Virus record (IMG/VR): IMGVR_UViG_3300031994_000039
Coordinates: 1 to 64,000 of that record
From: a virus
Taxonomy: Duplodnaviria; Caudoviricetes
Length of the DNA: 64,000 nt
Strand: one strand, 5' to 3'
Below the pieces are notes generated by a model, which ran no database searches, had not been told where the DNA came from, and worked only from the letters and a program-made list of their open reading frames with translations. Position numbers and translations under genes: made by a program. Shown one piece after another: positions 35,693 through 60,621 of this stretch (positions are counted from its first letter, which is position 1; every line of letters starts with the position of its first letter).

Positions 35693-35745
35693 TAAAAACA
35701 CCTCATATTCACTTACTAAAACATCACGATCTGTTCTGCGTTTTT

Positions 35746-42883: not shown

Positions 42884-43686
42884 TAACTTACTTCCTCCTT
42901 AACTTCCACAATATCACAACCGGATAAGTAGTTGTGATCTACGGAGCCGAGATTTAAATTCCTATACGCTTCGTCAATTTCCTCCGCCGTGATTCCTATG
43001 TAAGCAAGTGTTTGTGCTGGGGAAGAATGATTCAACATCTTCTGAAGCAACATTAACTTACGTGGATCGTTATGGCTCATTAACATCTGATGATAACAGA
43101 ATGTCTTTCTCAACGAGTGAGTGGACATCTTCATATCCAGTGATAAATCATCTGCGATCCTGTACAGAATTCCATTGATTGACCTAACATCAAGCGGACT
43201 GTTCACGTTCTTTCCTCTATTGGACAAGCTACGAAACATGAAATCGCTGAGCGAAACGCCGTCTGTATGTTCAAGATATAATGTAACCGCCTCAATTACT
43301 GCATCGTTGACGGTTATATATCTGTTGACTTTCTTTTTCCTGGTGTTCCTTGTCTTCTTCTCGAAGACCGGAAATCTGTCTTTAAAAACAAAATTCGGAT
43401 TGATAATGTTAGCAAACCTCAGAAGCCTGAGGTCGCTAACTCTCAACCCGAAGTTAATTCCTACAACAAACAGCATGTAATCACGCCATCTGCCGTTCTT
43501 TTTTAAATAATCACAAACCCTTTCAATATCTTTCATACTCTTGATCGGGTCTGATGTTCTGTCTTCACAGACATCTTCTGGACAACTCTGTGTTGCCGGA
43601 GCAATAAGCCCCGCACTGAGCTGCTTGTTGTTTCTCTTGAGCTCTGATACATCAATTGTCTTATACATTCCTGCATCAACTGTCAT
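42883..43686 (-). CDS. Tyrosine recombinase (catalytic-domain type)
   Basis: GLRVSD, EKKT, THSLRKTF, LNHSS, TLAYIG. Confidence 0.9.
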   Translation of the reverse strand: MTVDAGMYKTIDVSELKRNNKQLSAGLIAPATQSCPEDVCEDRTSDPIKSMKDIERVCDYLKKNGRWRDYMLFVVGINFGLRVSDLRLLRFANIINPNFVFKDRFPVFEKKTRNTRKKKVNRYITVNDAVIEAVTLYLEHTDGVSLSDFMFRSLSNRGKNVNSPLDVRSINGILYRIADDLSLDMKMSTHSLRKTFCYHQMLMSHNDPRKLMLLQKMLNHSSPAQTLAYIGITAEEIDEAYRNLNLGSVDHNYLSGCDIVEVKEEVS

Positions 43687-43691
43687 GAGAA

Positions 43692-44090
43692 TCACCACCA
43701 TTCATAATAAAAGACTTCATATGTGTTAAAATTGACCGTTCGTAAGATCTCGGTAAGTTCCCTCGCTGTTCGTTCAACCTCATCATAATACCACCGGTCA
43801 TATTCAGTTCCTCCGAAGAAGTAGCCATCACTCGACGGAAGTAATTTCCTTGATGTACGATGATTTTTATTCTTCTTATAAGCTTCAACAACCTTCAGAC
43901 AGTCATCACGAAGCTGAGTAAGCTGCTCCTTTGTTACCGGATGTTCCTCACAATTTGACTCTGTGTTGTATCCTGTATTGTCTACAAACCACTGGCGAAT
44001 CTGATTCGCTTTTCTCCAGTACATAATCTCTCTTGGTTCTGGTGGTTCCTTAACCTTAACCCTCTTGTATAAAAACATATCAAGTCCCAT
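43692..44090 (-). CDS. Conserved phage hypothetical protein
   Basis: MGLDMFL...YWRKANQI...GYFFG motifs. Confidence 0.7.
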   Translation of the reverse strand: MGLDMFLYKRVKVKEPPEPREIMYWRKANQIRQWFVDNTGYNTESNCEEHPVTKEQLTQLRDDCLKVVEAYKKNKNHRTSRKLLPSSDGYFFGGTEYDRWYYDEVERTARELTEILRTVNFNTYEVFYYEWW

Positions 44091-44974: not shown

Positions 44975-47227
44975 TCATTCTTCGTAGTCGCAGAGGATTT
45001 TTCCCTTGTATTCTTTACCTTCATCTGATTCAAGGAATGCATTTCTGAGCCCAATAATATCGTATGAACGAATTTCCTGCCCCTCTTCCTTGATTCTTCT
45101 GAGGAATCCGTAGAACATATTCATGATTGGTGTTGTAAGTTTGCTTGTTTCGTGCATATAACCCTGTCTGCCAACGACCTGAGCTACCATTCTCATGAAC
45201 TTCCAGAAGTTATAGTAGTTAAGTTTCATCTTAGTCATGTAACCGTTAGCATCTTCAAGAACGAATCCCTCGATTTCCTTGCCGTCATACAGGTAGTCAT
45301 TCTTATGGCATTCATTGTAGAACTTATTGAACTCTGTCCAGTCATTAAACACCGCTGCCTTTTCCTTGCACTCTACACCAATTGTATTCGCAATCACCTG
45401 AGTTTCCTCGTAGCTGTATGCCTCGAAGAATGTGTAGTTGTGAACGACATTTAGGAGTACAAGTTTCTGCTTTGGATATTCTATGATGTGTGGATCATTT
45501 ACTGGGTCAATCACCTCGAAGACGAATGTAACATTATTCTCCTTAGTGTATCCTTTTATTGCCTCAATTGCTTCCTTGGAAACAGTCTTCTCAAGAATTT
45601 CTCTGATGTATCCTGCATGACTGCCTGTTGTACTTGACTTGGACGCAATGAACAGGTCGTCCTTGTATGGATCATATGATACAAGTCCGAGGAAACCATT
45701 TTCTTTTCTGTATGCCGTTACAGGGAATACGAATTTCCTCTTCAGCCATTCAAGCTTTGTTTCTTCACGTTCACCGATGTTGAAGAACTTATCATAAGCA
45801 CGAGCAATTATTCTCTCATTCGGCACATCGACGAATAATCCTCTTGCTCTTGTGGTCATGCCATTCCATTCTTTGTTCTGGAAAGCTTCTCTTGTGAAGT
45901 TGAAGGACGAAATCTCACCCTCTTTAGTTTCCTTGATGAGCTTGCTTGCTCTCATTGCAAGAACCATATCACCAACGGTACCATCGTGTGGATGATGCTG
46001 TGCATAATCATCTGTCTCAGGTTCAAATTCCTTGAATACATCATTCTTCATTTCATGTGTTTCGATCTTTCCATCCGGATAAATCGTTACACCTCTGAGA
46101 CATCCGCCGAACTCAACCTTGCCTTCAAGATTGTAGCAGCAATCATTGACCTCGATCGGAACATCATCAACATTTCTATGACCGTGAATCTGAATACAGT
46201 CAACTGTGTTCTGCATAAATGCATTATCCACTTCAACTGAATCCTTATAATTGCCGACACCCTTAATCATTGTCTTTGTTGGGACAAGTGTAAGATTGTC
46301 AGGCATACAGCTAAGTCCACCGTGAGTTATAAGGAATTCCTTACCGGCAAAATTAAAGTGAGCCATCTGCCATAATTTACGGTAGAACTGCTTTGCATCC
46401 GATCTTGAGATACCGCCTTCTTCAAGCTGCGGTCTTGTATGGAACTCAAATTCCTTGGATACTGATACACAGTCATGACCCCAGTCATTAAGATGGTGTT
46501 CGTGATTTCCTTCGAGGAACACTATATTCTTAAGCTGAGATAATTCGTAGAGGTATGCGAATGTTTCTGCATTCTCGATTCCTCGATCCAGGTAATCACC
46601 AAGGAATATAAAAAGCTCGTCTTCATTAAAAGCCGAGCCATGAAATTCTTCTATGTATTTTTTCAGTGCTGTATAACATCCATGAATATCTCCGATAACA
46701 TGAATCTTCTTATACACACCATTGTAATCTGCAGGTGCGCCCCATACTGTATCCAGTTCATCAGGCTTGATAACCTTGATTCTTCCCGGAATCTTCTGTG
46801 TCTTGAATCTTGCATAAATCTTGTCGATTGCAAATTCCGGAACAACCTTGTAGCCGATTCGCTGTCTATTGCGACGCTTTACTTCCTCTGGATCAATATC
46901 GGTCATATCAATACAGTAGCAGCGATAGCGATAACGTTCACAGAGATCCTTGTATCTGTTCATTTCTGTTGTCTTTGAATTAACTGCGTCGATGACCGTA
47001 AACTCTCCGTTAGCCATACGACGTTCCAGGATTTCAAAGAGGAGATTCCATGCATCATTGCTTAAGCTCTGATCAATTTCCTCATTACCTTCCTTGTTAA
47101 GGATAGGTGAGCCGTATAACATTCTCAGCGAGTCTGCTGAAAGTGTGTACGGCTCTAAGTAGTTGTTTTTAATGAATGTGGACTTCCCGCAACCGGGAGC
47201 ACCACGGAACAGAAGTAATACTCTCAT
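44975..47227 (-). CDS. RNA repair enzyme: polynucleotide kinase + metallophosphoesterase + Rnl1-type RNA ligase
   Basis: GAPGCGKS P-loop; GDIHG, GDYLDRG, GNHE, HGG, HGH; ARGLF, KFFN, KENG, FE, EGFV, K.K. Confidence 0.9.
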   Translation of the reverse strand: MRVLLLFRGAPGCGKSTFIKNNYLEPYTLSADSLRMLYGSPILNKEGNEEIDQSLSNDAWNLLFEILERRMANGEFTVIDAVNSKTTEMNRYKDLCERYRYRCYCIDMTDIDPEEVKRRNRQRIGYKVVPEFAIDKIYARFKTQKIPGRIKVIKPDELDTVWGAPADYNGVYKKIHVIGDIHGCYTALKKYIEEFHGSAFNEDELFIFLGDYLDRGIENAETFAYLYELSQLKNIVFLEGNHEHHLNDWGHDCVSVSKEFEFHTRPQLEEGGISRSDAKQFYRKLWQMAHFNFAGKEFLITHGGLSCMPDNLTLVPTKTMIKGVGNYKDSVEVDNAFMQNTVDCIQIHGHRNVDDVPIEVNDCCYNLEGKVEFGGCLRGVTIYPDGKIETHEMKNDVFKEFEPETDDYAQHHPHDGTVGDMVLAMRASKLIKETKEGEISSFNFTREAFQNKEWNGMTTRARGLFVDVPNERIIARAYDKFFNIGEREETKLEWLKRKFVFPVTAYRKENGFLGLVSYDPYKDDLFIASKSSTTGSHAGYIREILEKTVSKEAIEAIKGYTKENNVTFVFEVIDPVNDPHIIEYPKQKLVLLNVVHNYTFFEAYSYEETQVIANTIGVECKEKAAVFNDWTEFNKFYNECHKNDYLYDGKEIEGFVLEDANGYMTKMKLNYYNFWKFMRMVAQVVGRQGYMHETSKLTTPIMNMFYGFLRRIKEEGQEIRSYDIIGLRNAFLESDEGKEYKGKILCDYEE

Positions 47228-47697
47228 TGTAAATTCCTCCATTTATGTTGTTTTCTTCTGAGATAAGAATCGCCCCTGGATTTCAGGAGCGAATTAGATT
47301 GTTTGTAATCTAAAGACTGAGATCATGATCGTCATTTCTTTCGGGCCGCCAGGCCAGGAAGAAATTTCGATCCTGATCTTTAGGGTTTGCTATTTTGCAA
47401 ACTAACTTTGCTTTACTTTCGCTGACAGCAAAAGCCGCCTTTATTATTCTTAGCCTACTTCCATCGTAGGGAGGAAGAGCGGATTCCCACCGCATTGCCA
47501 ACTTATCAGGTTGGAGGTAAATAAAAGCATGATGTCATTACAAATCTCTAAACCAGTAATTATTCTTGTTAATAATTAACAAGACCCCTCTTTATCTGGC
47601 TACCTTCTGTCTTCCTTGGAGTCAGACAGCTTGGTGACGCATCGCAATAGGCTGTGCGTACTTCAAAGGGTAAATGCGGAGTCTACCTTCCGCCAGG

Positions 47698-47768
47698 TAA
47701 GGTACTAGGGAGTTGCACCCTAATCTCTGCCTTCCAAGGGCAGGGCTTTACTATTAAGCTAGTACCTC
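47698..47768 (-). tRNA. tRNA-Pro(TGG)
   Basis: Cloverleaf; CTGCC-CTTGGAA-GGCAG anticodon arm; atypical T-loop TGCAACT. Confidence 0.75.
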
Positions 47769-48294
47769 ATATAAATATAAGGGAGTTAGATTTCTCCGAC
47801 TCCCTCAAGTATACATCCGAAAACGTATACCCCAATTACTAATCATTGCCTTCACACTAATAGCTAACAGAACTTCCCGCCATAGCTGGGCGGTTATGTG
47901 AAAAGCAAACTCCCGACTACTCAACCGGTATGTTCGTTGGGAGATTTAATTGAAGTTCTCTTTTACACACGCATGTGGCTAATTTCAAACCGGTTATTAT
48001 CCGAAGATTTACCGGAGCAACTAAACCCCTCACGCCACCAGGCGGGCTGCTTAGAAACACGGCTCATTAAAGAGCTCTTCAGTATGTCCTGATTATTTGG
48101 TTGAGGGAAGTAGGTTTCTATTATAATCTCCGCAAGCCTACAAATCCGGGTCCGAAAATATCGCAAAACATTTCTGCTCCGCAACGCAAACGGCGATAAC
48201 CGTTTTCCAATAATGTTCCACCTTTAAGGCAGTGGGACACCTAAAAACTTGCCTCGGTCCGCAGTACATTTCTGTCTTATGCGTGGCAAGCAAG

Positions 48295-48376
48295 TGGGAG
48301 AAGATGGACTCGAACCATCGAAGGACATAGCCAGCGGATTTACAATCCGCCCTCATTGCCGCTAGAGAATTCTCCC
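48295..48376 (-). tRNA. tRNA-Tyr(GTA)
   Basis: GCGGA-TTGTAAA-TCCGC; long variable arm; GGTTCGAGTCC. Confidence 0.9.
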
Positions 48377-48384
48377 GTATTATA

Positions 48385-48549
48385 TCAAGGCACATAATTG
48401 TACATTTCTTGACTTCCTAATTTACGATAATTATTATTCGTAAGTTCTTCTTTTGAATGTCTTACTCTGCGATTCCAAAGTTTCTTGTAGTGCTTCTTAG
48501 ATTCCTTGATACCATCTTTTAACCATCTGTCTTTCTTAGAACCTTTCAT
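48385..48549 (-). CDS. Small basic protein
   Basis: AAAGGG RBS before MKGSKKDRW. Confidence 0.5.
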   Translation of the reverse strand: MKGSKKDRWLKDGIKESKKHYKKLWNRRVRHSKEELTNNNYRKLGSQEMYNYVP

Positions 48550-48569
48550 ATTAAATACCCTTTCGTAGA

Positions 48570-48641
48570 TTGGAGCACCGGGATTTGAACCCGGGAATGA
48601 CGGAGTCAAAGTCCGTTGCCTTACCGCTTGGCTATGCCCCA
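48570..48641 (-). tRNA. tRNA-Gln(TTG)
   Basis: TGGGGCA.. acceptor; ACGGA-CTTTGAC-TCCGT; GGTTCAAATCC. Confidence 0.92.
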
Positions 48642-48742
48642 GGGCAGCTGCAGGAGTTGAACCCGCACCCTCGTCGATTACTTACTGACTGTTTTATCAT
48701 GAATTAACAGTCTGCTTTCACCAACGAGAACCGTTCACTGCC
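48642..48742 (-). ncRNA. tRNA-like RNA with T-arm and acceptor, no D stem and an extended arm
   Basis: GGCAGT/GCTGCC acceptor; GCGGG-TTCAACT-CCTGC T-arm; CTCGTTGGT/ATCGACGAG and GACTGTT/AACAGTC stems. Confidence 0.45.
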
Positions 48743-48895
48743 GTTTGTTCCAACTTTGTTTTCCGTGAGAAGACTTTTCATCCTCTCTTTGAACTCTACT
48801 AAATTAAGGATTTCCTTCCTGTCTGATTCATCAATCTTGCTAAGTCTTTCAGAATCAAAATACCCACCAGAAGTTTTCATAATATCACCTCGAAA

Positions 48896-48970
48896 GTACC
48901 TCTACCGGAATCGAACCGGCGCCTCTTTCCATTACTGGAAAGCGTGTTACCATTCTATCACTAAGCGGCA
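48896..48970 (-). tRNA. Atypical tRNA or pseudo-tRNA (anticodon undetermined)
   Basis: Canonical D and T arms; CTTTC-CAGTAATG-GAAAG gives an 8-nt anticodon loop; acceptor mismatch. Confidence 0.6.
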
Positions 48971-48976
48971 CAATAA

Positions 48977-49048
48977 CAAGAGCCCCAGGAATCGAACCCA
49001 GTCTATCTGTCTTGACAACAGATGTGCTATCCTTTACACTATGCTCTT
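48977..49048 (-). tRNA. Atypical tRNA; anticodon TCA (opal-reading) or a shifted GTC (Asp)
   Basis: TCTGT-TGTCAAG-ACAGA; G at position 33; discriminator G. Confidence 0.65.
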
Positions 49049-49230
49049 GAAGCATATACTATGTGTGGTCAACAACATGGTAGTGAAAACCCGGCATTAA
49101 AGGGGATGCCGGGGAAACTTTAAATGGAGGTTTGAAAGTATGCACAACACCGAAATTTAATATGCTTTTGAAAAGGAGAGTAACTTATGAATAAAAATAC
49201 CACCACACATAGCCTTATATTAGATAATGA

Positions 49231-49302
49231 TTGCGGGAGCCGGACTCGAACCGACGACTTCCAGAATATGGGTCTGGCGATCTACCTCTGCTCTATCCCG
49301 CC
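49231..49302 (-). tRNA. tRNA with CAT anticodon (Met/fMet-like)
   Basis: CCAGA-CCCATAT-TCTGG; G1.A72 mismatch as in initiators; C33. Confidence 0.8.
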
Positions 49303-52273: not shown

Positions 52274-53440
52274 TTATAAAGTTTTCAAGTCATTCTTAAT
52301 TGACTCAGCTATATTCAAGCCGACCTTCTGACTCATCTTGTCAACTATTTTCTGAATGGCTTCCTTTTCGACCATCGAGAAGTAATTACGATACCCTTCG
52401 AGCACTTGAATGTCATTCAACGACCAGTCCTTTCCGTTCTTTTTGTCCATGCCGTATGAATACAACATTGCGGTGAACTTTTTCTTGTTCTTATATCCGA
52501 CTGTAATCTGATTGTCCTTATTAAGCATTACGCCAAGATTCCAGTTTGAACCTGCAGAAGAACCATACCTTGTCTTCTTTCTATTAAGCTCGAACGGAGC
52601 TCCGAATTCCTGAAGAACCTTTACTATTTCGTCCTCAATCATCTTGTAACTGAAGTCTATCTTACATGATATGATGAAGTCATCCGCATATCTTGTATAC
52701 ACAAACTTCCTGTTATCATAATCCCTGAACATATTAAACAGCTTGTAGTCAATTGGGATCATCATGATGTTTGTTATTAGTGGGCTGATCGGAGTTCCTT
52801 GAGGAAGCCCGCCGTTTAAGAACGCAAGGCTGATTGCCTGCTCGAAATATTTCTTTCCTTCCGGAACCGCAAGAACTCTGGAAAACGGAAAAATCATACT
52901 GAACATCTTTGTCACGAATTCCGGAGTTGTGCTTCCAAAGAAGTTATGAAGGTCGAACTTTGCAAACCACTTACTTTCATTACCCTGATGTCTCTTTACT
53001 GCATCCAGTGTGCTTCTGCCTTTTATATATGCAAATGCTGATGTATGATACATCGCACCAAATCCATCCTCGAAGATGAACTTAAGTTCCCGAAGCGCCT
53101 CCATAAGTCTCGGCTTAGGTGCATCGATTCTACGAAGGCCGCCGGATCTCTTCGGAATGTGGAATGATCTATAAAGTTCCGCTCTATCCACTTCAAAGAG
53201 ATCCTTGTACTTCTCGTTAAAGCACCACAATTCATTAATGAGTGACTGAATATTCAAACTGCCGAATATCTTTTCAGCATTTCTGGATAAGTATGTTCGT
53301 GTGTTTGTATTCCTGCCGTCCTTGCGTGTATAGTTTTTATATCTTTCGTTCCATTCATTATCTGGTAACGAAAAGAAATCGTCCAGAGATAGCTGAACTG
53401 TTTTCTTATTAAGAACAACTACTACATACTCATTGTACAT
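52274..53440 (-). CDS. Retron-type reverse transcriptase (388 aa)
   Basis: AAAGGAGG RBS before MYNEY; IPKRSGGLRRIDAP; AFAY; region-X-like DAVKRH; DLHNFF.S; LPQG.P.SP; YTRYADD; region-Y-like WNLGVMLN; no maturase or nuclease tail. Confidence 0.9.
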   Translation of the reverse strand: MYNEYVVVVLNKKTVQLSLDDFFSLPDNEWNERYKNYTRKDGRNTNTRTYLSRNAEKIFGSLNIQSLINELWCFNEKYKDLFEVDRAELYRSFHIPKRSGGLRRIDAPKPRLMEALRELKFIFEDGFGAMYHTSAFAYIKGRSTLDAVKRHQGNESKWFAKFDLHNFFGSTTPEFVTKMFSMIFPFSRVLAVPEGKKYFEQAISLAFLNGGLPQGTPISPLITNIMMIPIDYKLFNMFRDYDNRKFVYTRYADDFIISCKIDFSYKMIEDEIVKVLQEFGAPFELNRKKTRYGSSAGSNWNLGVMLNKDNQITVGYKNKKKFTAMLYSYGMDKKNGKDWSLNDIQVLEGYRNYFSMVEKEAIQKIVDKMSQKVGLNIAESIKNDLKTL

Positions 53441-53459
53441 AGAGTTTCCTCCTTTCAAA

Positions 53460-53651
53460 TTAATTGTCAACCTCCACGACAATCTTATTATTGTCCAGAG
53501 AGAAGAAGACCACGGCGTGATCGAGGAAATCCTCAACCCGCTGTGGACTTTCGTTCTTTGTGCTTTCAATTATAACTTCCTGACTGCCTGCAGAAACCAG
53601 TGTGAAGTCTATGCTCAGTGCAGCCTTACTGTAAAAATCCCCAAATTTCAT
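53460..53651 (-). CDS. Small hypothetical protein upstream of the RT
   Basis: AGAGGA/AGGA RBS-like sequence; 63 aa. Confidence 0.5.
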   Translation of the reverse strand: MKFGDFYSKAALSIDFTLVSAGSQEVIIESTKNESPQRVEDFLDHAVVFFSLDNNKIVVEVDN

Positions 53652-53672
53652 TTTTCCTAGTCCTCTTTATTT

Positions 53673-54584
53673 TTAGCAATTAACCGTCGTAAATTCTTTC
53701 GTGTCTTTATTGAAGAAGAATATCTCTCCAGAAAGAGTATCCGCTGGTCCGAATATTCTATTTGTTTCCGTTACATTACGCTTAATGCTCGTCGGATCGA
53801 TGCTTCCAACCTTGTGAACCATAGCCTCGTGTATACTTGTGAACGCTACGTAGAAGCTATCGCCGTACATTTCTGCAAGCTTTTCCTTAACTCCCGGACA
53901 GAACATTGCGATCGCTCCGTTTGTTTTCCTGCTGGTTGTGACGAGCGTGACTCTGTTGTTACTAAGTCTTTCCTTGCTTTCGAGAACTTTCTTTCCGCTT
54001 CCGTCAGTTATGTTAAACATGTCTGTGTAGAACATTGGAACCTGATTCTTTACTGTGTTCTCCATTGCAGCCGCGAAGATATCCAAATCCTTCATACCTG
54101 TCTGCTTCTTATATCCTTCGACACATCTCATCGGAACCTTTATTGTGTTCAAGATTCCGTCGCAGTCACTCATAATAAGGTAAAGAACCAGCGCAATATC
54201 ACCCTTCTTGCAGTACATGCAAGGTTCTTTTGCATTCTTCTGGATAAATTCCGCACTATAATTCACAGGTCTGATGATTAATTCGTCCTTAATCTTAGTG
54301 TAGTCTTCTATTCTGTCGATCTTATTCATGAATCCACCAGCCCTTTTTCTGATGCTTGTCAAAGCCTCGCCAGTTGCCCTAAGGACAATGTCCCATCCTC
54401 TTTCGTTTACTGACTTCTGTGTATCTGCCAGTCTTACTGCCATTGATACCTCATCGCCGTTCAGTTTTATTCTTGCAACCTCTACATCATTTACACATTC
54501 AACGAGGAATTCCTCATTTGCCTGGATAAGATTGTATTCTTCCATTTTTTCTTTTAATACCTTTGCAAATTCTTTGTTAGTCAT
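53673..54584 (-). CDS. DUF5688-like protein
   Basis: GDIALV, AMENT, NGAIAMF, YVAFTSIHEAM, LSGEIF motifs. Confidence 0.7.
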   Translation of the reverse strand: MTNKEFAKVLKEKMEEYNLIQANEEFLVECVNDVEVARIKLNGDEVSMAVRLADTQKSVNERGWDIVLRATGEALTSIRKRAGGFMNKIDRIEDYTKIKDELIIRPVNYSAEFIQKNAKEPCMYCKKGDIALVLYLIMSDCDGILNTIKVPMRCVEGYKKQTGMKDLDIFAAAMENTVKNQVPMFYTDMFNITDGSGKKVLESKERLSNNRVTLVTTSRKTNGAIAMFCPGVKEKLAEMYGDSFYVAFTSIHEAMVHKVGSIDPTSIKRNVTETNRIFGPADTLSGEIFFFNKDTKEFTTVNC

Positions 54585-54625
54585 AATCAAAACCTCCAAG
54601 TTTAATTATCTTACTACCATTGTTC

Positions 54626-54904
54626 GTGTAACCTGATTACCTTTCAGGATCTCAGGGCAGCGGGCGCTGGTGCCACCGGCGCGCGTCAAAGCGATCTTTT
54701 ATTTGTTCCTTTGCGGAACAAAAGAACGAAGGTCCACGTATTTGCGTGCTTCCTGAGATCTGTTTCTCTAATCAGGGCGGCTCCAGATCCGGAGATGGCG
54801 ACTTGAGTTGTCGCCTCTCCTCCTCCTTCGCCTTATCATGTCGAGCCTTTTAATTACATCAAAAGGTTATTTCATATTGGATATAAAATAATATGCGTTA
54901 CACA
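54626..54904 (-). ncRNA. Retron-like ncRNA 1 (msr-msd)
   Basis: GTGTAAC (54626-32)/GTTACAC (54897-903) inverted ends; two short stem-loops after GTGTAAC-G on the minus strand; large multibranch stem at 54632-54776. Confidence 0.8.
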
Positions 54905-55057
54905 TTTTCATGTATTAATAAAAGATAGCGTGATACATAAATTACATAAACAATACCGCCGCAAAAATCCCGCAAACCACGTAGCTATCAGGTTTGCGGG
55001 GGATAGTTTTTTCCAACTTTCTTGCGGAGTTATGTTTTATTACGTTTTGTCGCTCGC

Positions 55058-55720
55058 TTAAAAAGCGTCGATTTCAAAGCTCTTCAGATCAACTAAAACC
55101 ATCTTCTTAATTCCTTCGCCCTTTACGAAGTGTATGAAGTTGGTTACTGCGATTGACGATACCACTCTAACAACAGGGCACACGCCCAGTGTAATGCCGC
55201 AAGCTGATGTGGGAGTTTCTGCCTTCGCTTCTTCATGGCTGAACTGCATTGTAGCCAGAAGATTTTCCCTCATGCTTTTATCTGACCAGTCAGCAGCGTA
55301 ATGCTGTGCGTGCTCTAACAAAGTTCTTATGTCGAACACTGCTTTAACCATCGGATTAAGCATATGTTTTTCACAGATTTCTCTGCGGATCTCGATACTG
55401 TCTACGCAAAGGAAGACATATCCTGCAAGAGTTTCACCGTTCCAACCCTTCTTTGTTTTGATCTCGATGTCCGGATTGATGTTCTGGAGAATACCCTTGA
55501 GAGCTTCTGTCTTTTCCTTGCCGACATCTTCTTTCGTGAACATCTGGTTCACGATATTATGTTCCTCTACCTTATCAAAATCCCAGAGAACCATTGACTT
55601 TACGCCACAGCGGGCGAGGTTTTCTGCGATTGTTGAACCGACAGATCCACATCCGATGATGTGGATGTTGCCGTTTACATTGCTTGGGTTGAAGTATTCG
55701 AGTGATTTTGATAAATTCAT
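55058..55720 (-). CDS. ThiF/E1-like adenylyltransferase
   Basis: IIGCGSVGS, WDFDKVEEHNIVNQ, K, CVDS...R; candidate catalytic Cys in PTSACG; no Zn CxxC pairs. Confidence 0.9.
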   Translation of the reverse strand: MNLSKSLEYFNPSNVNGNIHIIGCGSVGSTIAENLARCGVKSMVLWDFDKVEEHNIVNQMFTKEDVGKEKTEALKGILQNINPDIEIKTKKGWNGETLAGYVFLCVDSIEIRREICEKHMLNPMVKAVFDIRTLLEHAQHYAADWSDKSMRENLLATMQFSHEEAKAETPTSACGITLGVCPVVRVVSSIAVTNFIHFVKGEGIKKMVLVDLKSFEIDAF

Positions 55721-55721
55721 A

Positions 55722-56333
55722 TTAACACGCCTCCACAAATAATTCTTCAAGGTTCACCTTTTCTTCTTCAGGTTCTTCTTTGATCTGGACTTCCGTTGTA
55801 CAGTACTCTTCAAATGCCTTCATGAGTTCTTCGGCAAATTCACTTTCCTGTTCTTCTGTAAGAGCTGGTGTCTCAGGTTCAGGTTCCTCTTCCGGAATCT
55901 CATAATTGTCAACAATTTCATGGATGATGTCCATTATATCTGTTGCTGCTTCCCCTTCTGCGGCAGGTTCTTCTTCCTCCTCAGGGTCATCCTCTTCTTC
56001 GGGTTCATCTTCCCATTCCTGGTTGTTGTCCATATATGATTTGAGATCGTCTTTATAATCATTGAACTGCCCGTCGTTGTCGTCTGTTCCTCTCCACGTT
56101 CCGTCGTAGTCGTCGTGTATATATCTGTCATACCTGTCACTTGGTATATCATCAACCAAGCTTCTTAAATCTGACAGAGAGTCGCAGTACTTTGCGTCAT
56201 CGAGAATTCTGCTTTCAAATTCGCCGTGCGTATATAAACCGCCTGTGAAAACATCATTAAAATAATCATAATCCCTTGCGCATTGTTCCAGTTCATCATA
56301 GGTGGTGATATCTTCAAACTCTGTTCGTGTCAT
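55722..56333 (-). CDS. Highly acidic protein
   Basis: AAGGAGG RBS; very D/E-rich; located between JAB and E1. Confidence 0.7.
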   Translation of the reverse strand: MTRTEFEDITTYDELEQCARDYDYFNDVFTGGLYTHGEFESRILDDAKYCDSLSDLRSLVDDIPSDRYDRYIHDDYDGTWRGTDDNDGQFNDYKDDLKSYMDNNQEWEDEPEEEDDPEEEEEPAAEGEAATDIMDIIHEIVDNYEIPEEEPEPETPALTEEQESEFAEELMKAFEEYCTTEVQIKEEPEEEKVNLEELFVEAC

Positions 56334-56352
56334 ATTTCAGACCCTCCTTACC

Positions 56353-57162
56353 TTACCATCCGCAACCAAATCTTTCGCTCAGCCACGCTTCGTATTCCTC
56401 ATCTGTCATGCCAGCGTAGTAGTCACTATATTTTGATTTCTTACCGCCTTTGCCTTTGCCGATAGTCTTTGTGTCGGCTAAGGTACCCTTCAGATTGTAA
56501 ATCTGTGTACCTGTGTATCTTGGGAAGTATTCATCAACCACGAGTTCCTTCGCTTTTTCTGCGAACTCCAGGATTTCCTCTTCGACATCGACGAATACCG
56601 TAACATCATTGTCTTCATAGACTGTGTTACTCTGTTTATCGTAAATGTTTACGTATACGTCTCCTTTTTTATTTGTAACCAAGAAGATATAGAAGTCGTC
56701 GTCTCTGAGCTGATCAACGATTCCTCCGTAATAGGTTTCGTCTACGCTTGAAGGAGTTACGCCCATGTTTACATGGCTGTGCCCCTGCATTCTTAAGTTC
56801 TGAAAAACCTCGTCTGGCTGTTCGTAGAGCCACATCTGATACTTTTCCTGATCCGTAGTGACAGTTGAACCTGTTACCTTCTGCGGGTAAACTACTATGT
56901 CGTCGATGACATAATCGCCGTCCTTTACCTTTCTGGCGATGCCGTGCCATGCAACCTCTTTATCAAACTTATCAACCAGTGCTCTCATTTTCTTATCGGC
57001 AAGCTGACTGATTTCCAGTGAAGCTTTTTTGCCGGTATTCAGTGTGAGTTTCTTGCTGTAGTTGACTGTGTTATTCTTGAAGACTCCGGCTGCGAGAAAT
57101 TTTAAAAATTCCTCACGGATCTTTTCAATTTCTGTCTGATCTATATTAAATGCACGACTCAT
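56353..57162 (-). CDS. JAB/MPN metalloprotease (prokaryotic deubiquitinase-like)
   Basis: Upstream catalytic E (KEVAW) and JAMM motif GHSHVNMGVTPSSVD. Confidence 0.85.
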   Translation of the reverse strand: MSRAFNIDQTEIEKIREEFLKFLAAGVFKNNTVNYSKKLTLNTGKKASLEISQLADKKMRALVDKFDKEVAWHGIARKVKDGDYVIDDIVVYPQKVTGSTVTTDQEKYQMWLYEQPDEVFQNLRMQGHSHVNMGVTPSSVDETYYGGIVDQLRDDDFYIFLVTNKKGDVYVNIYDKQSNTVYEDNDVTVFVDVEEEILEFAEKAKELVVDEYFPRYTGTQIYNLKGTLADTKTIGKGKGGKKSKYSDYYAGMTDEEYEAWLSERFGCGW

Positions 57163-57166
57163 ATGA

Positions 57167-58570
57167 TTAACCTTCCTTTCTAAGTTCCTCAAGAACTTCA
57201 TTGAGTGTGTAGCTGTTTCCGTTTAATTCAAAAGCTCTCTTGTTTGTTCTTGTTATGCGAGTTGTAAACTCTTCCATAACGGTGCTGTCTGCGAAGTTCA
57301 ATGAACGAACTGACATTCCGCAGAGACTGAGACACTGGATTGTATCGCCCGCCTTGAGCGCATCGACCATCATCATTTCATAGTCACCTAAACAGTGGTA
57401 ACGGTCGATATGTGTATTCGGGAAGTAATCCTGAACTTCTGGAATGTAGCTTGCGTCTGCTATTCCAGTCACTCTGAACTCGCTTATCTTTATTCTGTAA
57501 GCTGCAACACTCTTGAGCTTCACACTATGTTCTACGAAGATCGCATTGAAGAGTTTTTCTGTGTCCTCTCTGCTGATGTTTGAATAATCGTAAATAATAC
57601 TATCGTAATTATCTACAAATTCCTCAGCTGTATCCGAATCAAATACATCAAGATATCCAGTAGCAAAAAACTCGATTGAGTCGCCGCTGCATGAATTGAA
57701 TACGAGATTTTTATTTGCCTTGAAGAAGTCGAGAATTTCGTTACTTTCATTCTTCACAACATTTCTTAATCCATCAATAATGATGTTCTTATCTCTTATC
57801 TTTATGAGCAGATTCGAAATTTCCTCACGCTTCATAGCTATCGTCTGTTCCAGTGATGAGATTTCGTTCTTGTGATATTCTAACTTATTCTTTGCAAAGC
57901 GAGTCTCAATTCCTGAAAGTGCTGCTTCCATTTTCCTTTCCCGGATGCCCTTGATAGCTGCGATGTTTGCGATTGCCTTTAAGAAAGGTTCTACGTTAGT
58001 CTTGCTGAGAGTTTCAAGGAACTCTGTTTCCTCTTTGGTGATAGGCTTTTCCTTGAAGAACCACGGCAGATATACCGGAGTTCCCATTAATACATAACGT
58101 TCTGTTTCAAGAGACATATTTTCTATCGGCTTATAGATTACGATTGTCCGCTTGCCGCATGTGAAACATGTTACCTCAGTTCTGCTAAAGAACTTTCTAA
58201 CCTTCGCAGTTTCAACCCATTCCGGGCTCTTTTCCTTAACTCCCTCGCTGAGTTCGTCAAACCACTTTGTATCCGATCTCTTTACAGATATCAGCCATAA
58301 ATCCTCATCACACTTTTCTGTGTCGAATGTGAGTAATCTGTTGTGTAATTCATCGTATGATGAATCATACATGCCAGCGTTTCTGGTTATTTCGTTATAC
58401 CTGATTTTGAATGGCGCGTCGTCTTCGACCCTGTCGATTAATAACGCTCTTACAACCATATTGAATACTACGTCTGTACTATAATTCCATTCGATCTTAT
58501 AGATCTTCTTATCATCTTCGTCTTCGTTGTAACTGAAGGCAGTTGATGCTGGGATTCTTCCGTTGAACAT
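57167..58570 (-). CDS. Large protein with central coiled coil and C-terminal E2-like motif
   Basis: FPNTHIDRYHCLGDY resembles the UBC HPN(H)I...CL active-site segment; operon context. Confidence 0.55.
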   Translation of the reverse strand: MFNGRIPASTAFSYNEDEDDKKIYKIEWNYSTDVVFNMVVRALLIDRVEDDAPFKIRYNEITRNAGMYDSSYDELHNRLLTFDTEKCDEDLWLISVKRSDTKWFDELSEGVKEKSPEWVETAKVRKFFSRTEVTCFTCGKRTIVIYKPIENMSLETERYVLMGTPVYLPWFFKEKPITKEETEFLETLSKTNVEPFLKAIANIAAIKGIRERKMEAALSGIETRFAKNKLEYHKNEISSLEQTIAMKREEISNLLIKIRDKNIIIDGLRNVVKNESNEILDFFKANKNLVFNSCSGDSIEFFATGYLDVFDSDTAEEFVDNYDSIIYDYSNISREDTEKLFNAIFVEHSVKLKSVAAYRIKISEFRVTGIADASYIPEVQDYFPNTHIDRYHCLGDYEMMMVDALKAGDTIQCLSLCGMSVRSLNFADSTVMEEFTTRITRTNKRAFELNGNSYTLNEVLEELRKEG

Positions 58571-58630
58571 TTAAAAATTCCTCCTTAGAAAGATTGGCGG
58601 GGTGTTGTGTTCCCCGCCTTTTGGTTTTGG

Positions 58631-58943
58631 TTTGTGTAACCTAATTAGAAGTTGATCCTGATGAAGGATGAGTTCTGGGCTACTCAACCAGGTGAACTTC
58701 TATTACGATGACCTTTTTCCTGATCTGCGGGCTGCGCAATCTTGGGGCTTCCTGAACATATTTCTGCTTGGATGTTGATTGAGCTTTTAATTTTTTTTTT
58801 TAGTATGTTTTAATCAGATAAAACAGTACCCAGCTCGTGTCCAGATACCTCCTTCCGGCGGAGGTGCCTCCTTTCCCTTAACAATGCGATCCATTCACTG
58901 ACAGTAAATGGTTGTTTTAAAAAAACAAAATGCGTTACACAAA
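58631..58943 (-). ncRNA. Retron-like ncRNA 2 (msr-msd)
   Basis: TTTGTGTAAC/GTTACACAAA 10-bp inverted ends; same msr-like scaffold as ncRNA 1 with compensatory changes; different msd hairpins. Confidence 0.8.
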
Positions 58944-58972
58944 AATCAAATACTAGTTTTATTCAGCAGAAA

Positions 58973-59200
58973 TTAAGCGTTGTCTGCTTTAACCACCTGT
59001 AAGAGGTAGCATTTATCAGTAACGCCGTAGTCTGCAAAGGTCTTATTGAAATCCGCACTGCCTACGACGCTGCCGTTGAGTGTGATTCCGCCTGCGGCAA
59101 CATTGAGATTTGCCTGTTCTGCGGCTTCGAGAATTGTAGTGCTTGGGTCAAGAACTAATTCTGTTTTATTGAGTGATGTTCCGCTTATTACCTTAATCAT
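58973..59200 (-). CDS. Ubiquitin-like beta-grasp protein, copy 2
   Basis: 75 aa, MIKVISG...TLNG...KTFADYGV...LLQVVKADNA; AAGGAGG RBS. Confidence 0.75.
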   Translation of the reverse strand: MIKVISGTSLNKTELVLDPSTTILEAAEQANLNVAAGGITLNGSVVGSADFNKTFADYGVTDKCYLLQVVKADNA

Positions 59201-59284
59201 GGTTAAATTCCTCCTTAATTTACAGGGGCGAGGCAAATGCCCAGCCCCGACTTACCTGTTATTTATGAATTGTGAAGAATGTTA

Positions 59285-59665
59285 TCACATAATTGTGATG
59301 CTATCCATTGCTGTGCTGAGTGCGTTCTTGGCAGCTTCGATCTTTTCCGGAGCAGTTGCCTCGAATGCGTTCATTTTAGCAAGAGCCTTGCCATACTTTT
59401 CAGCAATGAACCCCTTGATCTTATCCGGTTCAAGATCGCCGACAGAAACTGAAGTGCTTGCGTAGCCGCTTGCATCAGTCTTATCGAAGGTGATTCCGTA
59501 TGTTCCGATTGAGCCTGTGGTTCCTGTTGCAACCTTAAAATCAATTTCCTTTTCCTCGTTCTTAACGACGAGTGCTTCAGGTGTTACTGTTGCAAGTGTT
59601 TCGAGATCTGCTGTGAGAATTGTGCTTGTGAAAACTGCGATGCCTGAGATTACTGTTACCTTCAT
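59285..59665 (-). CDS. 126-aa hypothetical protein, copy 2
   Basis: Paralogue of 59751-60131 (shared GTYGITFDKTDASG). Confidence 0.75.
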   Translation of the reverse strand: MKVTVISGIAVFTSTILTADLETLATVTPEALVVKNEEKEIDFKVATGTTGSIGTYGITFDKTDASGYASTSVSVGDLEPDKIKGFIAEKYGKALAKMNAFEATAPEKIEAAKNALSTAMDSITIM

Positions 59666-59750
59666 TTAGATTTCCTCCTTAAAATTACAGGGGCGAGATT
59701 AAGAAACCCCGCCCCACTTACGTGAATGAATGTTTGTTTCCGCTGAGCGA

Positions 59751-60131
59751 TTACATAATTGTGATGTTGTTCATTGCTGTTTCAAGAGCTGACTTAGCAA
59801 GTGCGATACGCTCTGGTGCAACCTCTTCAAAAGAGTTCATCTTTGCGATTGCCTTGCCATATTTAGTGGCAATGAATTCCTTCACCTTGTCTGCCGGAAT
59901 GTTACCGATTTCAACAGATGTTGAAGCGAAGCCGCTTGCGTCTGTCTTGTCGAAGGTGATTCCGTAGGTACCAACTGAGCCCTTTGAGCCTGTGTCAACC
60001 ACAAACTCAATTTCTTTTTCTTCGTTCTTGGCGATGAGCACTTCCGGAGTTACCTTCTTGAGTGTTTCCAGATCAGACATGAGAACTGCACTTGTGAAAA
60101 CCGCGATTCCGCTGATTACAGTAATTTTCAT
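59751..60131 (-). CDS. 126-aa hypothetical protein, copy 1
   Basis: Paralogue of 59285-59665; AGGAGG RBS. Confidence 0.75.
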   Translation of the reverse strand: MKITVISGIAVFTSAVLMSDLETLKKVTPEVLIAKNEEKEIEFVVDTGSKGSVGTYGITFDKTDASGFASTSVEIGNIPADKVKEFIATKYGKAIAKMNSFEEVAPERIALAKSALETAMNNITIM

Positions 60132-60193
60132 TTTAAATTCCTCCTAGAATTTTCTTACTTGTGTTTTGAGAGATGTGAAATTGTGTGTCTATT

Positions 60194-60274
60194 ATGTTAA
60201 ACTCCTAAACGGTTGGGTTGAATTCCGCAAGCCCGAAATTGGGGGCGATAACCGTTCCGCTTAGGAGGTAACAT
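60194..60274 (-). ncRNA. Candidate structured RNA (long interrupted hairpin)
   Basis: ATGTTA/TAACAT, CTCCTAA/TTAGGAG and ACGGTT/AACCGT nested stems. Confidence 0.45.
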
Positions 60275-60294
60275 CAGATTGTTTTTCCAGTAGC

Positions 60295-60522
60295 TTAAGC
60301 GTTGTCTGCCTTAACTACCTGGAGTAAGTAACATTTATCTGTTACTCCGTAGTCGTTGAAAGTCTTGTTGAAATCCCCACCGGAAACCATTGAGCCGTTG
60401 AGTGTGATTCCGCCCGCAGGAACGTTGAGTCCTGCCTGCTCTGCAGCTTCCATGAGTGTTGTTGATGGGTCGATAACGAGTTCTGTCTTGTTGAGTGATG
60501 TTCCTGAGATTACCTTGATCAT
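60295..60522 (-). CDS. Ubiquitin-like beta-grasp protein, copy 1
   Basis: 75 aa; near-identical to copy 2; ends KADNA. Confidence 0.75.
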   Translation of the reverse strand: MIKVISGTSLNKTELVIDPSTTLMEAAEQAGLNVPAGGITLNGSMVSGGDFNKTFNDYGVTDKCYLLQVVKADNA

Positions 60523-60592
60523 TTGAAATTCCTCCTAAGTTTTTCGTTTAAATTCTTACTAATTCTTACTGGAACTTTTAATTCCTTACTTA

Positions 60593-60621
60593 ACTATATC
60601 ACAGCGTTGTCTGTTTGTCAA
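60593..60621 (-). promoter_or_regulatory. Strong sigma-A promoter at the head of the Ubl/retron operon
   Basis: TTGACA-17 nt-TATAGT with an extended -10 TG. Confidence 0.8.

What the first reader, a model, noticed from the sequence alone, without database searches (positions are those of the whole stretch)
52274..60621. Candidate new system: a phage operon coupling a ubiquitin-like conjugation pathway with a retron RT and two ncRNAs
Seen: a strong promoter (60593-60621) heads a co-oriented run of Ubl-1, hairpin RNA, X1, X2, Ubl-2, ncRNA-2, E2-like protein, JAB, acidic protein, E1(ThiF), ncRNA-1, DUF5688-like, small ORF and retron-type RT. The two ncRNAs bracket the E2-JAB-E1 block. Established: retrons are typically RT + one msr-msd + one effector, and bacterial Ubl/E1/E2/JAB systems (CBASS Cap2/Cap3, Bil, Bub) conjugate proteins in phage conflict. 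I do not know of a described retron class with this layout. Inference: the msDNA(s) may gate or target Ubl conjugation, or the phage may use both parts against host defence or superinfecting phages.
Basis: partly seen in the sequence, partly recalled or inferred. Interest (0 to 1): 0.92.

Follow-up and report, generated by a model that had tools for sequence, protein, structure and literature searches.

The report
Phage retron joined to ubiquitin-like tagging kit
A 112-kb uncultured gut phage carries a gene block that joins a retron (a reverse transcriptase with two template RNAs) to a ubiquitin-like protein-tagging kit; every related phage I could check keeps the two together, and no paper I searched describes the pairing.

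Summary
On the minus strand at 60621-52274 lie:
- the best promoter match in the region;
- two Ubl genes and two copies of an unknown protein X;
- a 467-aa E2-like candidate;
- a JAB protease with a complete JAMM motif;
- an acidic protein;
- a ThiF-type E1;
- DUF5688 and a small ORF;
- a retron-type RT with YADD.

Both large gaps hold retron-style RNAs: a1/a2 repeats, a G after a1, two covarying msr hairpins and a long msd stem.

The link is conserved. All loci long enough to show it, over 100 seeded by RT, E1 or E2-like, keep E2-like, JAB, E1 and RT in order. RT identity falls to 37%.

In 57 loci with full 10-kb flanks, only X, Ubl, E2-like, JAB, E1 and RT are universal. 207 of 1596 locus pairs share no other gene.

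Corrections:
- The 'bracketing' of E2-JAB-E1 by two ncRNAs is lineage-specific. Most relatives place their 2-4 ncRNAs around the RT.
- DUF5688 is accessory.
- A terminator-like hairpin follows E1.
- The E2 call is only weakly supported.
- The Ubl ends in Ala, not Gly, and is fused to X in some relatives.

Functional coupling is inferred, not shown. This scan has already reported the same cassette in at least 20 other genomes.

The parts
60593..60621 (-). Sigma-70-type promoter, TTGACA-17 nt-TATAGT with a TG extension
   Evidence: Matches 11 of 12 positions and is the best match in 51-61.5 kb. Sequence read.
60295..60522 (-). Ubl-1, 75 aa, ends VVKADNA
   Evidence: ORF. A homologue (L096 fusion) was modelled at pLDDT 94. 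Its residues 1-75 form a ubiquitin/SUMO beta-grasp: Foldseek TMt about 0.6 and VIA Z 8-8.9, including bacterial BilA 8tyz_B at Z 8.4.
60185..60292 (-). Long hairpin between Ubl-1 and X1; role unknown
   Evidence: Free energy -33.6 kcal/mol, z -4.1. No Rfam match.
59751..60131 (-). X1, 126 aa, universal partner protein of unknown fold
   Evidence: The X cluster is present in 57 of 57 loci. X is fused to the Ubl C-terminus in L010, L085, L091, L093, L094 and L096. Pfam, PDB and Atlas gave no usable match.
59690..59715 (-). Terminator-like GC hairpin between X1 and X2
   Evidence: z -4.9.
59285..59665 (-). X2, paralogue of X1
58973..59200 (-). Ubl-2, 75 aa from the ATG (the ORF extends to a TTG at 59236), ends VVKADNA
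58625..58950 (-). Retron-type ncRNA-2: a1 TGTGTAAC, then G, two msr hairpins, a long msd, and a2 GTTACACA
   Evidence: z -3.0. nhmmer E 1e-14. Against L112 the msr is conserved and the msd has diverged.
58596..58618 (-). GC hairpin directly after ncRNA-2 and before the E2-like RBS
   Evidence: z -4.6.
57167..58570 (-). E2-like candidate, 467 aa, with an invariant PNxH(x5)CxG motif (C393)
   Evidence: Invariant columns in A3. Model pLDDT 85. Residues 277-424 give the only non-coiled-coil matches, at Z 6.1-7.7; calling those targets RWD/UBC-fold domains is my own knowledge, not the entry titles. No Pfam, PADLOC or PDB sequence hit.
56353..57201 (-). JAB/JAMM metallopeptidase with a low-complexity C-terminal tail. 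The true start is possibly M13 at 57165.
   Evidence: PADLOC JAB 7e-5. Invariant E81, H140, H142, S150 and D153.
55722..56333 (-). Acidic protein, 203 aa, rich in D and E
   Evidence: A homologous ORF lies between JAB and E1 in at least 38 of 57 loci.
55058..55750 (-). E1, a single-domain ThiF-type adenylating enzyme. The likely start is M11 at 55720. It has a GxGxxG motif and an invariant Cys in TPxSAC.
   Evidence: Pfam ThiF 2e-25. PADLOC E1-E2 7e-20. PDB Uba1, Uba5, MoeB and Cap2. Alignment A4.
54965..54996 (-). Terminator-like hairpin after E1, followed by ATTTTTG
   Evidence: Conserved in L112.
54615..54915 (-). Retron-type ncRNA-1: a1 TGTGTAAC, then G, two msr hairpins, a long msd stem, and a2 GTTACACG
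   Evidence: z -5.8. nhmmer E 3e-12. Against L112 the msr is conserved and the msd has diverged.
53673..54599 (-). DUF5688 protein; accessory, not part of the conserved core
   Evidence: Pfam 8e-25. Found by tblastn in 1 of 80 E1-seeded loci. Present in L112 and, elsewhere in the locus, in L011.
53460..53651 (-). Small ORF, 63 aa; accessory
   Evidence: Found only in the near relative L112.
52274..53440 (-). Retron-type reverse transcriptase, 388 aa from the ATG, with YADD and an N-terminal extension of about 85 aa
   Evidence: RVT_1 9e-18. PADLOC RT_II-A 2e-46. NCBIfam St85 171 bits, below the cut-off of 235. Best PDB hits are retron RTs at 2e-24. Invariants in A9.

Best explanation
This is one conserved phage cassette: a retron whose constant partner genes are a ubiquitin-like conjugation set.

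Shown here:
- The RT is retron-type.
- It is served by two ncRNAs here, and by 1-4 detected in relatives. They share an msr scaffold but have fast-diverging msd templates.
- X, Ubl, E2-like, JAB and E1 always accompany it.

Inferred mechanism:
1. The RT primes on the conserved G after a1 and copies each msd into msDNA.
2. JAB trims the Ubl, or Ubl-X fusions, to expose the C-terminal ...DNA.
3. The single-domain E1 adenylates that Ala and passes the Ubl, through Cys174 of E1 (TPxSAC), to Cys393 of the E2-like protein.
4. The Ubl is then put on a target. X is the prime candidate for a partner or substrate.
5. By analogy with other retrons, the RT-msDNA complex would hold this effector set in check or sense an attack. 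The system would then act in conflicts between phages, or between the phage and host defence.
For: Anatomy.

Retron RNA features:
- a1/a2 plus a following G at both gaps.
- Among 83 unique msr copies, 63% have an exact a1/a2 complement of 9 nt or more, against 10% in controls. A G follows a1 in nearly all.
- The two msr hairpins are 87.7% paired, against 39-51% when the partners are slid. 11 of 13 pairs show compensatory change, and 0 of 500 shuffles reach the observed value.

Ubl set:
- Ubl fold.
- JAMM motif invariant.
- E1.
- E2-like invariant PNxH..C and Z 6.1-7.7 matches to residues 277-424 that I read as RWD domains.
- Ubl-X fusions.

Linkage:
- 5 of 5 RT-seeded IMG/VR loci.
- 79 of 80 E1-seeded loci; the one miss ends 330 nt after E1.
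- 9 of 9 sufficiently long GTDB contigs seeded by E2-like.
- Contexts L010-L017.
- RT at 37-41% identity still sits next to ThiF.
- Only six gene clusters are universal in 57 full loci. 207 of 1596 locus pairs share nothing else.
Against: - All loci are uncultured phage or MAG contigs that may form one broad phage lineage, so co-inheritance cannot be excluded.
- The distance from E1 to RT varies from overlapping to about 5 kb, with unrelated genes inserted.
- A terminator-like hairpin follows E1.
- ncRNA positions vary.
- The Ubl-E2 gap also holds a tRNA in L001.
- Bil-type systems work without an RT.
- The E2 fold evidence is weak (Z below 8).
- No msDNA or conjugate has been observed.
Confidence: 0.55

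Rival explanations
1. These are two independent neighbouring modules. A Bil-like Ubl system and a stand-alone multi-ncRNA retron sit side by side in a conserved accessory or anti-defence region of one phage lineage. They are co-inherited without working together.
For: - A terminator-like hairpin lies between E1 and ncRNA-1, conserved in L112.
- Variable unrelated inserts lie between E1 and RT: DUF5688 here, DUF6273 in 27 of 57 loci, and seven genes including a MazE-type gene in L010.
- In most relatives the ncRNAs flank the RT only.
- Neighbouring genes look like other independent counter-defence items: NAD salvage, Macro, RtcB and Pnkp-Rnl.
Against: - Neither module was found alone in over 100 loci down to 37% RT identity.
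- Flanking genes turn over freely while the six core genes stay.
- The retron would then have no conserved effector of its own.
Confidence: 0.3
2. The cassette is a counter-defence tool rather than a defence system. The phage would make high-copy msDNAs as decoys, and use the Ubl set to tag or untag host immune proteins during lytic growth.
For: - A strong constitutive-looking promoter.
- The cassette sits among tRNA-repair and, in relatives, NAD-reconstitution genes.
- msd sequences diverge fast while msr is kept.
Against: - The msd segments have no match in the phage's own genome above chance.
- No target is known.
- The phage carries tyrosine recombinases, so it may be temperate, and a lysogen-protecting role fits as well.
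Confidence: 0.1
3. The E1 and Ubl form a ThiF/ThiS-like sulfur-carrier pair that feeds a thio-modification. There would be no protein conjugation.
For: - The best NCBIfam rows for E1 are ThiF models, though below their cut-offs.
- MoaD is among the fold matches of the Ubl, at Z 8.4.
- A cysteine desulfurase gene lies at 41711-42883.
Against: - The Ubl ends in DNA(A), not GG.
- A JAB protease, an E2-like protein with an invariant Cys, and Ubl-X fusions are all universal.
- The desulfurase lies 10 kb away.
Confidence: 0.05

Closest known systems
Retrons (RT + msr-msd ncRNA + effector; types I-XIII of Mestre et al. 2020, PMC7736814)
   Same: - The RT has YADD, and its best matches are retron RTs: PADLOC II-A, I-A and XIII, and PDB Ec78, Ec83 and St85-family.
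- The ncRNA has a1/a2 repeats, a G after a1, msr hairpins and a long msd stem, and it lies just upstream of the RT in most relatives.
   Different: - The RT is below the curated cut-off of the nearest NCBIfam model (171 against 235 bits).
- The retron VTG motif reads NLG and NAxxH reads DAxxH.
- There are 2-4 ncRNAs per RT in 70 of the 77 loci where any was detected, instead of one.
- The constant partners are Ubl, E2-like, JAB, E1 and X. None of the terms ubiquitin, ThiF or JAB occurs in the classification paper or in a 2026 survey.
- It is carried by large phages.
BilABCD (type I/II bacterial ubiquitination-like anti-phage operons; 10.1101/2023.09.26.559546)
   Same: - The set is Ubl + E2 + JAB + E1.
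- The Ubl model matches BilA (8tyz_B) at Z 8.4 with 21% identity.
- In Bil, the protease pre-processes the Ubl.
   Different: - The E1 here is a 223-aa single adenylation domain. It is not the IAD+AAD+CYS enzyme described for BilD.
- The Ubl ends in Ala rather than the universally conserved Gly.
- The E2-like protein is 467 aa with extra N-terminal and coiled-coil parts, and has no sequence match.
- There are two extra universal parts: X and a retron.
Bub operons (PMC11601596)
   Same: A Ubl is made as a fusion pre-protein and cut free by a JAB peptidase. This is analogous to the Ubl-X fusions here.
   Different: - In Bub the fused partner is the E2, and catalysis uses Ser/Tyr oxyesters.
- X here has no Cys or His in this phage, and its fold is unidentified.
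- In Bub, the JAB and E1 are fused.
Type II CBASS Cap2/Cap3
   Same: - E1 (and E2) plus JAB act as regulators attached to another immune enzyme.
- PADLOC E1-E2 models match the E1.
   Different: - There is no CD-NTase.
- E1 and E2 are separate genes.
- A free Ubl exists.

Membership tests
Retron | Reverse transcriptase of the retron clade with an intact YxDD active site | tested here: met
   YADD is invariant. The top PADLOC, NCBIfam and PDB matches are all retron RTs.
Retron | RT reaches the curated score of a described retron RT family or type | tested here: not met
   NCBIfam retron_St85_RT scores 171 bits against a cut-off of 235. PADLOC scores are similar for types II-A, I-A, XIII and III-A.
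Retron | Retron-specific RT motifs NAxxH and VTG (recalled from the literature) | tested here: inconclusive
   The family has R142..A147..H151 (DAxxH in the window) and an invariant L302-G303 (NLG in place of VTG).
Retron | Adjacent ncRNA closed by a1/a2 inverted repeats, with a conserved priming G after a1 | tested here: met
   63% against 10% control for a complement of 9 nt or more, with a G after a1 in nearly all.
Retron | Conserved msr stem-loops supported by covariation | tested here: met
   87.7% paired against 39-51% when slid. 11 of 13 pairs are compensatory.
Retron | Production of branched msDNA | not testable with these tools
   Needs an experiment.
Retron | Partner genes of one of the 13 described types | tested here: not met
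   The universal partners are X, Ubl, E2-like, JAB and E1. The terms ubiquitin, ThiF and JAB are absent from PMC7736814 and PMC13712802.
BilABCD-type Ubl conjugation | Beta-grasp Ubl | tested here: met
   Model of the homologous L096 Ubl-X fusion, pLDDT 94. It matches ubiquitin, SUMO and BilA.
BilABCD-type Ubl conjugation | Conserved C-terminal Gly exposed for adenylation | tested here: not met
   The C-terminus is ...KADNA or ...KADNAA in 44 of 48 distinct Ubl sequences.
BilABCD-type Ubl conjugation | E1 adenylation domain | tested here: met
   Pfam ThiF 2e-25. PDB E1 enzymes.
BilABCD-type Ubl conjugation | E1 with an inactive plus an active adenylation domain and a CYS insertion | tested here: not met
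   The protein is 223 aa with one adenylation domain.
BilABCD-type Ubl conjugation | E2 of UBC fold with a catalytic Cys | tested here: inconclusive
   PNxH(x5)C is invariant. Matches that I read as RWD/UBC-like reach only Z 6.1-7.7 over residues 277-424. There is no Pfam, PADLOC or PDB sequence hit.
BilABCD-type Ubl conjugation | JAB/JAMM peptidase | tested here: met
   E...HxHx7Sx2D is invariant. PADLOC JAB 7e-5.
Type II CBASS | CD-NTase and a nucleotide-activated effector in the operon | tested here: not met
   No operon protein matches such PADLOC or Pfam models.
ThiS/MoaD sulfur carriers | C-terminal Gly-Gly | tested here: not met
   The Ubl ends in DNA(A).

The most novel reading that the evidence does not exclude
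The retron and the Ubl machinery act on each other directly. Either the RT-msDNA complex is itself the scaffold or substrate of Ubl conjugation, or the several fast-changing msDNAs set what the E2-like enzyme tags. That would link a reverse-transcribed DNA to protein tagging.
Probability: 0.12. Interest if true: 0.95.

Novelty: new variant of a known kind. Interest (0 to 1): 0.8.

Why it matters
Retron types are defined by their partner genes, and no ubiquitin-like conjugation set appears among the 13 types of Mestre et al. 2020. Bacterial ubiquitin-like systems (Bil, Bub, CBASS Cap2/3) have no known nucleic-acid sensor.

A cassette that always joins the two, in a very large family of gut Clostridia phages (437 RT clusters at 50% identity with E of 1e-30 or better), offers three things:
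- a candidate input for Ubl conjugation;
- a new effector class for retrons;
- a natural case of one RT serving several template RNAs, which is also of interest for retron-based editing tools.

It further shows a Ubl that ends in Ala and is made, in some phages, as a ubiquitin-style fusion or tandem array.

Tried and rejected
- megablast of the 8.7-kb block against GenBank phages gave no match. tblastn with the RT found one unannotated faecal contig of the family; every other hit was below 32% identity.
- Rfam gave nothing in 52-61 kb, at gathering scores or at E up to 1.
- RNAalifold on a plain MAFFT alignment of 10 msr copies found almost no structure. A hand-set structure on a 27-row alignment was needed.
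- E2-like protein:
  - Foldseek against PDB gave nothing at E of 0.001 or better.
  - A PDB profile search hit only coiled coils.
  - Pfam on 16 members gave nothing relevant.
  - The ESM Atlas gave only a 0.82 lead to Prok-E2_D, carried by 11% of one cluster.
  - pdb_via gave weak MoaB/MogA-like matches to residues 30-186, Z 5-6.4, which I treat as a generic fold.
- X protein: no Pfam, PDB or Atlas match. The fold lists of the fusion model were filled by the Ubl domain, so X's fold is untested, not absent. BFVD only returned uncharacterised homologues in 'Siphoviridae sp.' records.
- The msd segments have no match to the phage's own genome above shuffled controls.
- RNase H lies beside the RT in some relatives but is absent from this genome.
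- DUF6273 as a hidden universal partner: present in only 37 of 57 loci.

Full report
**What is there**

The window is the first 64 kb of a 112.5-kb IMG/VR phage record, rated 95% complete. Genes run on the minus strand.

The best promoter match in 51-61.5 kb is TTGACA-17-TATAGT with a TG extension at 60621-60593. Downstream of it, in order, lie:
- Ubl-1 (75 aa);
- a 108-nt hairpin (z -4.1);
- X1 and X2 (126 aa paralogues);
- Ubl-2;
- a 400-nt gap;
- a 467-aa protein with no family match;
- a 282-aa JAB protein;
- a 203-aa acidic protein;
- a ThiF-type E1;
- a 458-nt gap;
- a DUF5688 protein;
- a 63-aa ORF;
- an RT of 388 aa counted from its ATG.

**The retron half**

The RT has YADD. Its best matches everywhere are retron RTs:
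- PADLOC RT_II-A at 2e-46, with I-A, XIII and III-A close behind;
- NCBIfam retron St85 at 171 bits, below its cut-off of 235;
- PDB retron Ec78, Ec83 and St85-family RTs at 2e-24 to 5e-22.

It therefore belongs to no described type at curated thresholds. Across 20 diverse family members the catalytic motifs are invariant. The retron NAxxH region is kept as A..H, and the retron VTG position reads NLG.

Both gaps have retron ncRNA anatomy: a1 TGTGTAAC, an invariant G, two small hairpins, a long imperfect stem, and a2 GTTACAC(A/G). The folds are more stable than shuffles, at z -5.8 and -3.0.

An msr profile finds 1-4 such elements, always on the RT strand, in 77 of the 91 sequences searched (90 related loci plus this genome).

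Among 83 unique copies, 63% have an exact a1/a2 complement of 9 nt or more within 100-560 nt, against 10% in controls. The base after a1 is G in nearly all, and the median span is 297 nt.

On a 27-row alignment the two msr hairpins are 87.7% paired, against 39-51% with slid partners. 11 of 13 pairs show compensatory change, and 0 of 500 shuffles reach the observed values.

Between this phage and L112 (RT 79% identical), the msr parts and a1/a2 are almost unchanged while the msd parts have diverged almost beyond alignment. No Rfam family matches.

Whether msDNA is actually made cannot be tested here.

**The ubiquitin-like half**

*E1.* It is a 223-aa single adenylation domain with GxGxxG and an invariant Cys in TPxSAC.

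*JAB.* The full JAMM motif (E81, H140, H142, S150, D153) is invariant. The C-terminal tail is low-complexity, rich in Tyr, Gly and Lys.

*Ubl.* I modelled a homologous natural Ubl-X fusion from L096 at pLDDT 94.
- Residues 1-75 form a ubiquitin/SUMO beta-grasp. Foldseek gives TMt about 0.6 at probability 1. VIA gives Z 8-8.9.
- The matches include the bacterial BilA Ubl of entry 8tyz at Z 8.4, among the highest identities in that list at 21%.
- The C-terminus is ...KADNA or ...KADNAA in 44 of 48 distinct relatives, not Gly.
- In L010, L085, L091, L093, L094 and L096 the Ubl continues directly into X. L085 has two such fusions plus a free Ubl in tandem. This recalls ubiquitin fusion genes and the JAB-processed BubAB pre-protein.

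*E2-like protein.* The evidence is weaker.
- PNxH(x5)CxG is invariant, with C393 in this phage.
- In an all-against-all fold scan, the only non-coiled-coil matches cover residues 277-424. The three entries are a SEA-complex chain (Z 7.7), Knl1 (Z 6.4) and a chain of the 60S-UFM1-ligase-RQC map 9gy4 that I take to be LTN1 (Z 6.1). To my knowledge the matched regions are RWD domains of the UBC fold.
- Z values below 8 are not decisive.
- No sequence-based method sees an E2.

*X.* Its fold is still unidentified.

**Is the pairing more than chance neighbourhood?**

| Seed | Loci checked | Result |
|---|---|---|
| RT, IMG/VR | 5 (RT 53-59% identity) | all keep Ubl, E2-like, JAB, E1, RT in order |
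| E1, IMG/VR | best 80 of 289 (E1 53-67%) | RT downstream in 79; the one miss ends 330 nt after E1. E2-like and JAB in 78; the two misses are cut short upstream |
| E2-like, GTDB genomes | 10 MAG contigs, mostly Clostridia | all 9 long enough have the full set |
| RT or E2-like protein look-ups | L010-L017 | same order |
| Low end of the top 150 RT representatives (37-41% identity) | L108, L109, L111 | ThiF lies directly upstream of the RT |
| A divergent E1 | L114, L115 | same result |

An exhaustive RT search found 437 representatives (50% clusters) at E of 1e-30 or better. I found no RT of this clade without the Ubl genes, and none of the Ubl set without the RT.

As a control for general synteny, I clustered all plus-strand ORFs in 57 loci with full 10-kb flanks.
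- Only X, E2-like, JAB, E1 and RT (57 of 57) and Ubl (55 of 57) are universal.
- The next cluster is in 47 loci.
- 207 of 1596 locus pairs share no other cluster.
- This window shares a median of one non-core cluster with the others.
- The E1 count is 100% by construction, because the scan was seeded with E1. The other counts are not.

**What had to be corrected**

- The bracketing of E2-JAB-E1 by two ncRNAs holds here, in L112 and in L002/L004/L005, but not generally. The commonest layout is one ncRNA 350-450 nt upstream of the RT and one or two just downstream. L003 has its second copy 2.3 kb past the RT.
- In L001 the Ubl-E2 gap holds a tRNA-Leu. That gap therefore looks like a permissive site for small RNA genes rather than a functional address.
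- DUF5688 and the small ORF are accessory. So are DUF6273 (37 of 57 loci), HU and RNase H.
- A terminator-like hairpin with a T-run follows E1 and is conserved in L112. The block may therefore be two or more transcripts.
- The msd segments have no match elsewhere in the genome above chance.

**Reading**

The most economical reading is a retron whose conserved accessory set is a Ubl conjugation pathway. Partner genes are how retron types are defined. The steps are inferred from the families:
1. RT primes on the G after a1 and makes msDNA.
2. JAB matures the Ubl or Ubl-X.
3. E1 adenylates the C-terminal Ala.
4. A thioester passes to the Cys of the E2-like protein.
5. The Ubl is transferred to a target, perhaps X.
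6. RT-msDNA gates or senses.

I put 0.55 on real functional coupling. I put 0.30 on two co-inherited but independent modules, and the rest on a counter-defence role or a sulfur-carrier role.

The neighbourhood holds other conflict genes: Pnkp-RNA ligase and tRNAs here, and NAD salvage, Macro, RtcB and Thg1 in relatives. Two tyrosine recombinases suggest a possibly temperate phage. Neither observation settles whether the role is defence or counter-defence.

**Literature and earlier notes**

Full-text searches found no paper that joins retrons with Ubl, E1 or JAB genes.
- The retron classification (PMC7736814) and a 2026 metagenome survey (PMC13712802) contain none of the terms ubiquitin, ThiF or JAB.
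- The Bil and Bub papers do not mention retrons or RTs.

This scan has already reported the same cassette in at least 20 other genomes, with the same verdict. My tests agree with those notes.

This report adds:
- the six-gene core control;
- the a1/a2 statistics;
- the Ubl C-terminus and the Ubl-X fusions;
- the finding that the ncRNA interleaving is not conserved.

Noticed in passing
window 20044-20104 (-): RAGATH-18 RNA, matched above Rfam's gathering score (59 bits against 44.9).
   Followed up: no
window 47698-49302 (-): A cluster of five tRNA genes just downstream of the cassette.
   Followed up: no
window 44975-47242 (-): A 755-aa fusion of a polynucleotide kinase (AAA_33), a phosphatase (Metallophos) and a T4-type RNA ligase 1, that is, a tRNA-repair enzyme. 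Relatives carry RtcB and Thg1 nearby (L037, L112).
   Followed up: partly
window 41711-42883 (-): Class-V aminotransferase (cysteine desulfurase-like, 5.5e-70), next to a tyrosine recombinase at 42883-43701. A second recombinase-like gene lies at 34745-35701.
   Followed up: no
window 12327-14387, 27252-29456, 29952-30950, 31300-32640 (-): Replication and nucleotide genes: anaerobic ribonucleotide reductase NrdD, DNA polymerase III alpha, DnaG primase and DnaB helicase.
   Followed up: no
L012 11494-12129; L014 11514-12155: In some relatives an RNase H gene (Cauli_VI + RNase_H) lies directly after the RT, with an extra msr-like element in the gap between them. This genome has no RNase H.
   Followed up: partly
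L014 12967-16523; L016 19371-21143: NAD salvage genes (isochorismatase, Prs-like, NAMPT-like, NAD synthase) and a Macro domain gene lie a few kb downstream of the cassette in relatives.
   Followed up: no
L085 4702-6391: A tandem array of Ubl-X, Ubl-X and a free Ubl, resembling a polyubiquitin-style locus.
   Followed up: partly
L001 3733-3818: A tRNA-Leu(taa) sits in the Ubl-E2-like gap, the same place where this phage has ncRNA-2.
   Followed up: yes
window 56353-56650 (-) and 55722-56333 (-): The JAB protein ends in a variable low-complexity tail rich in Tyr, Gly and Lys. The next gene encodes a very acidic protein. The two may form an electrostatic pair.
   Followed up: no
L115 8001-9756: In this distant relative the RT match (from query residue 30) begins only about 60 nt after the E1 match ends. 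There is no room for an ncRNA between them.
   Followed up: no
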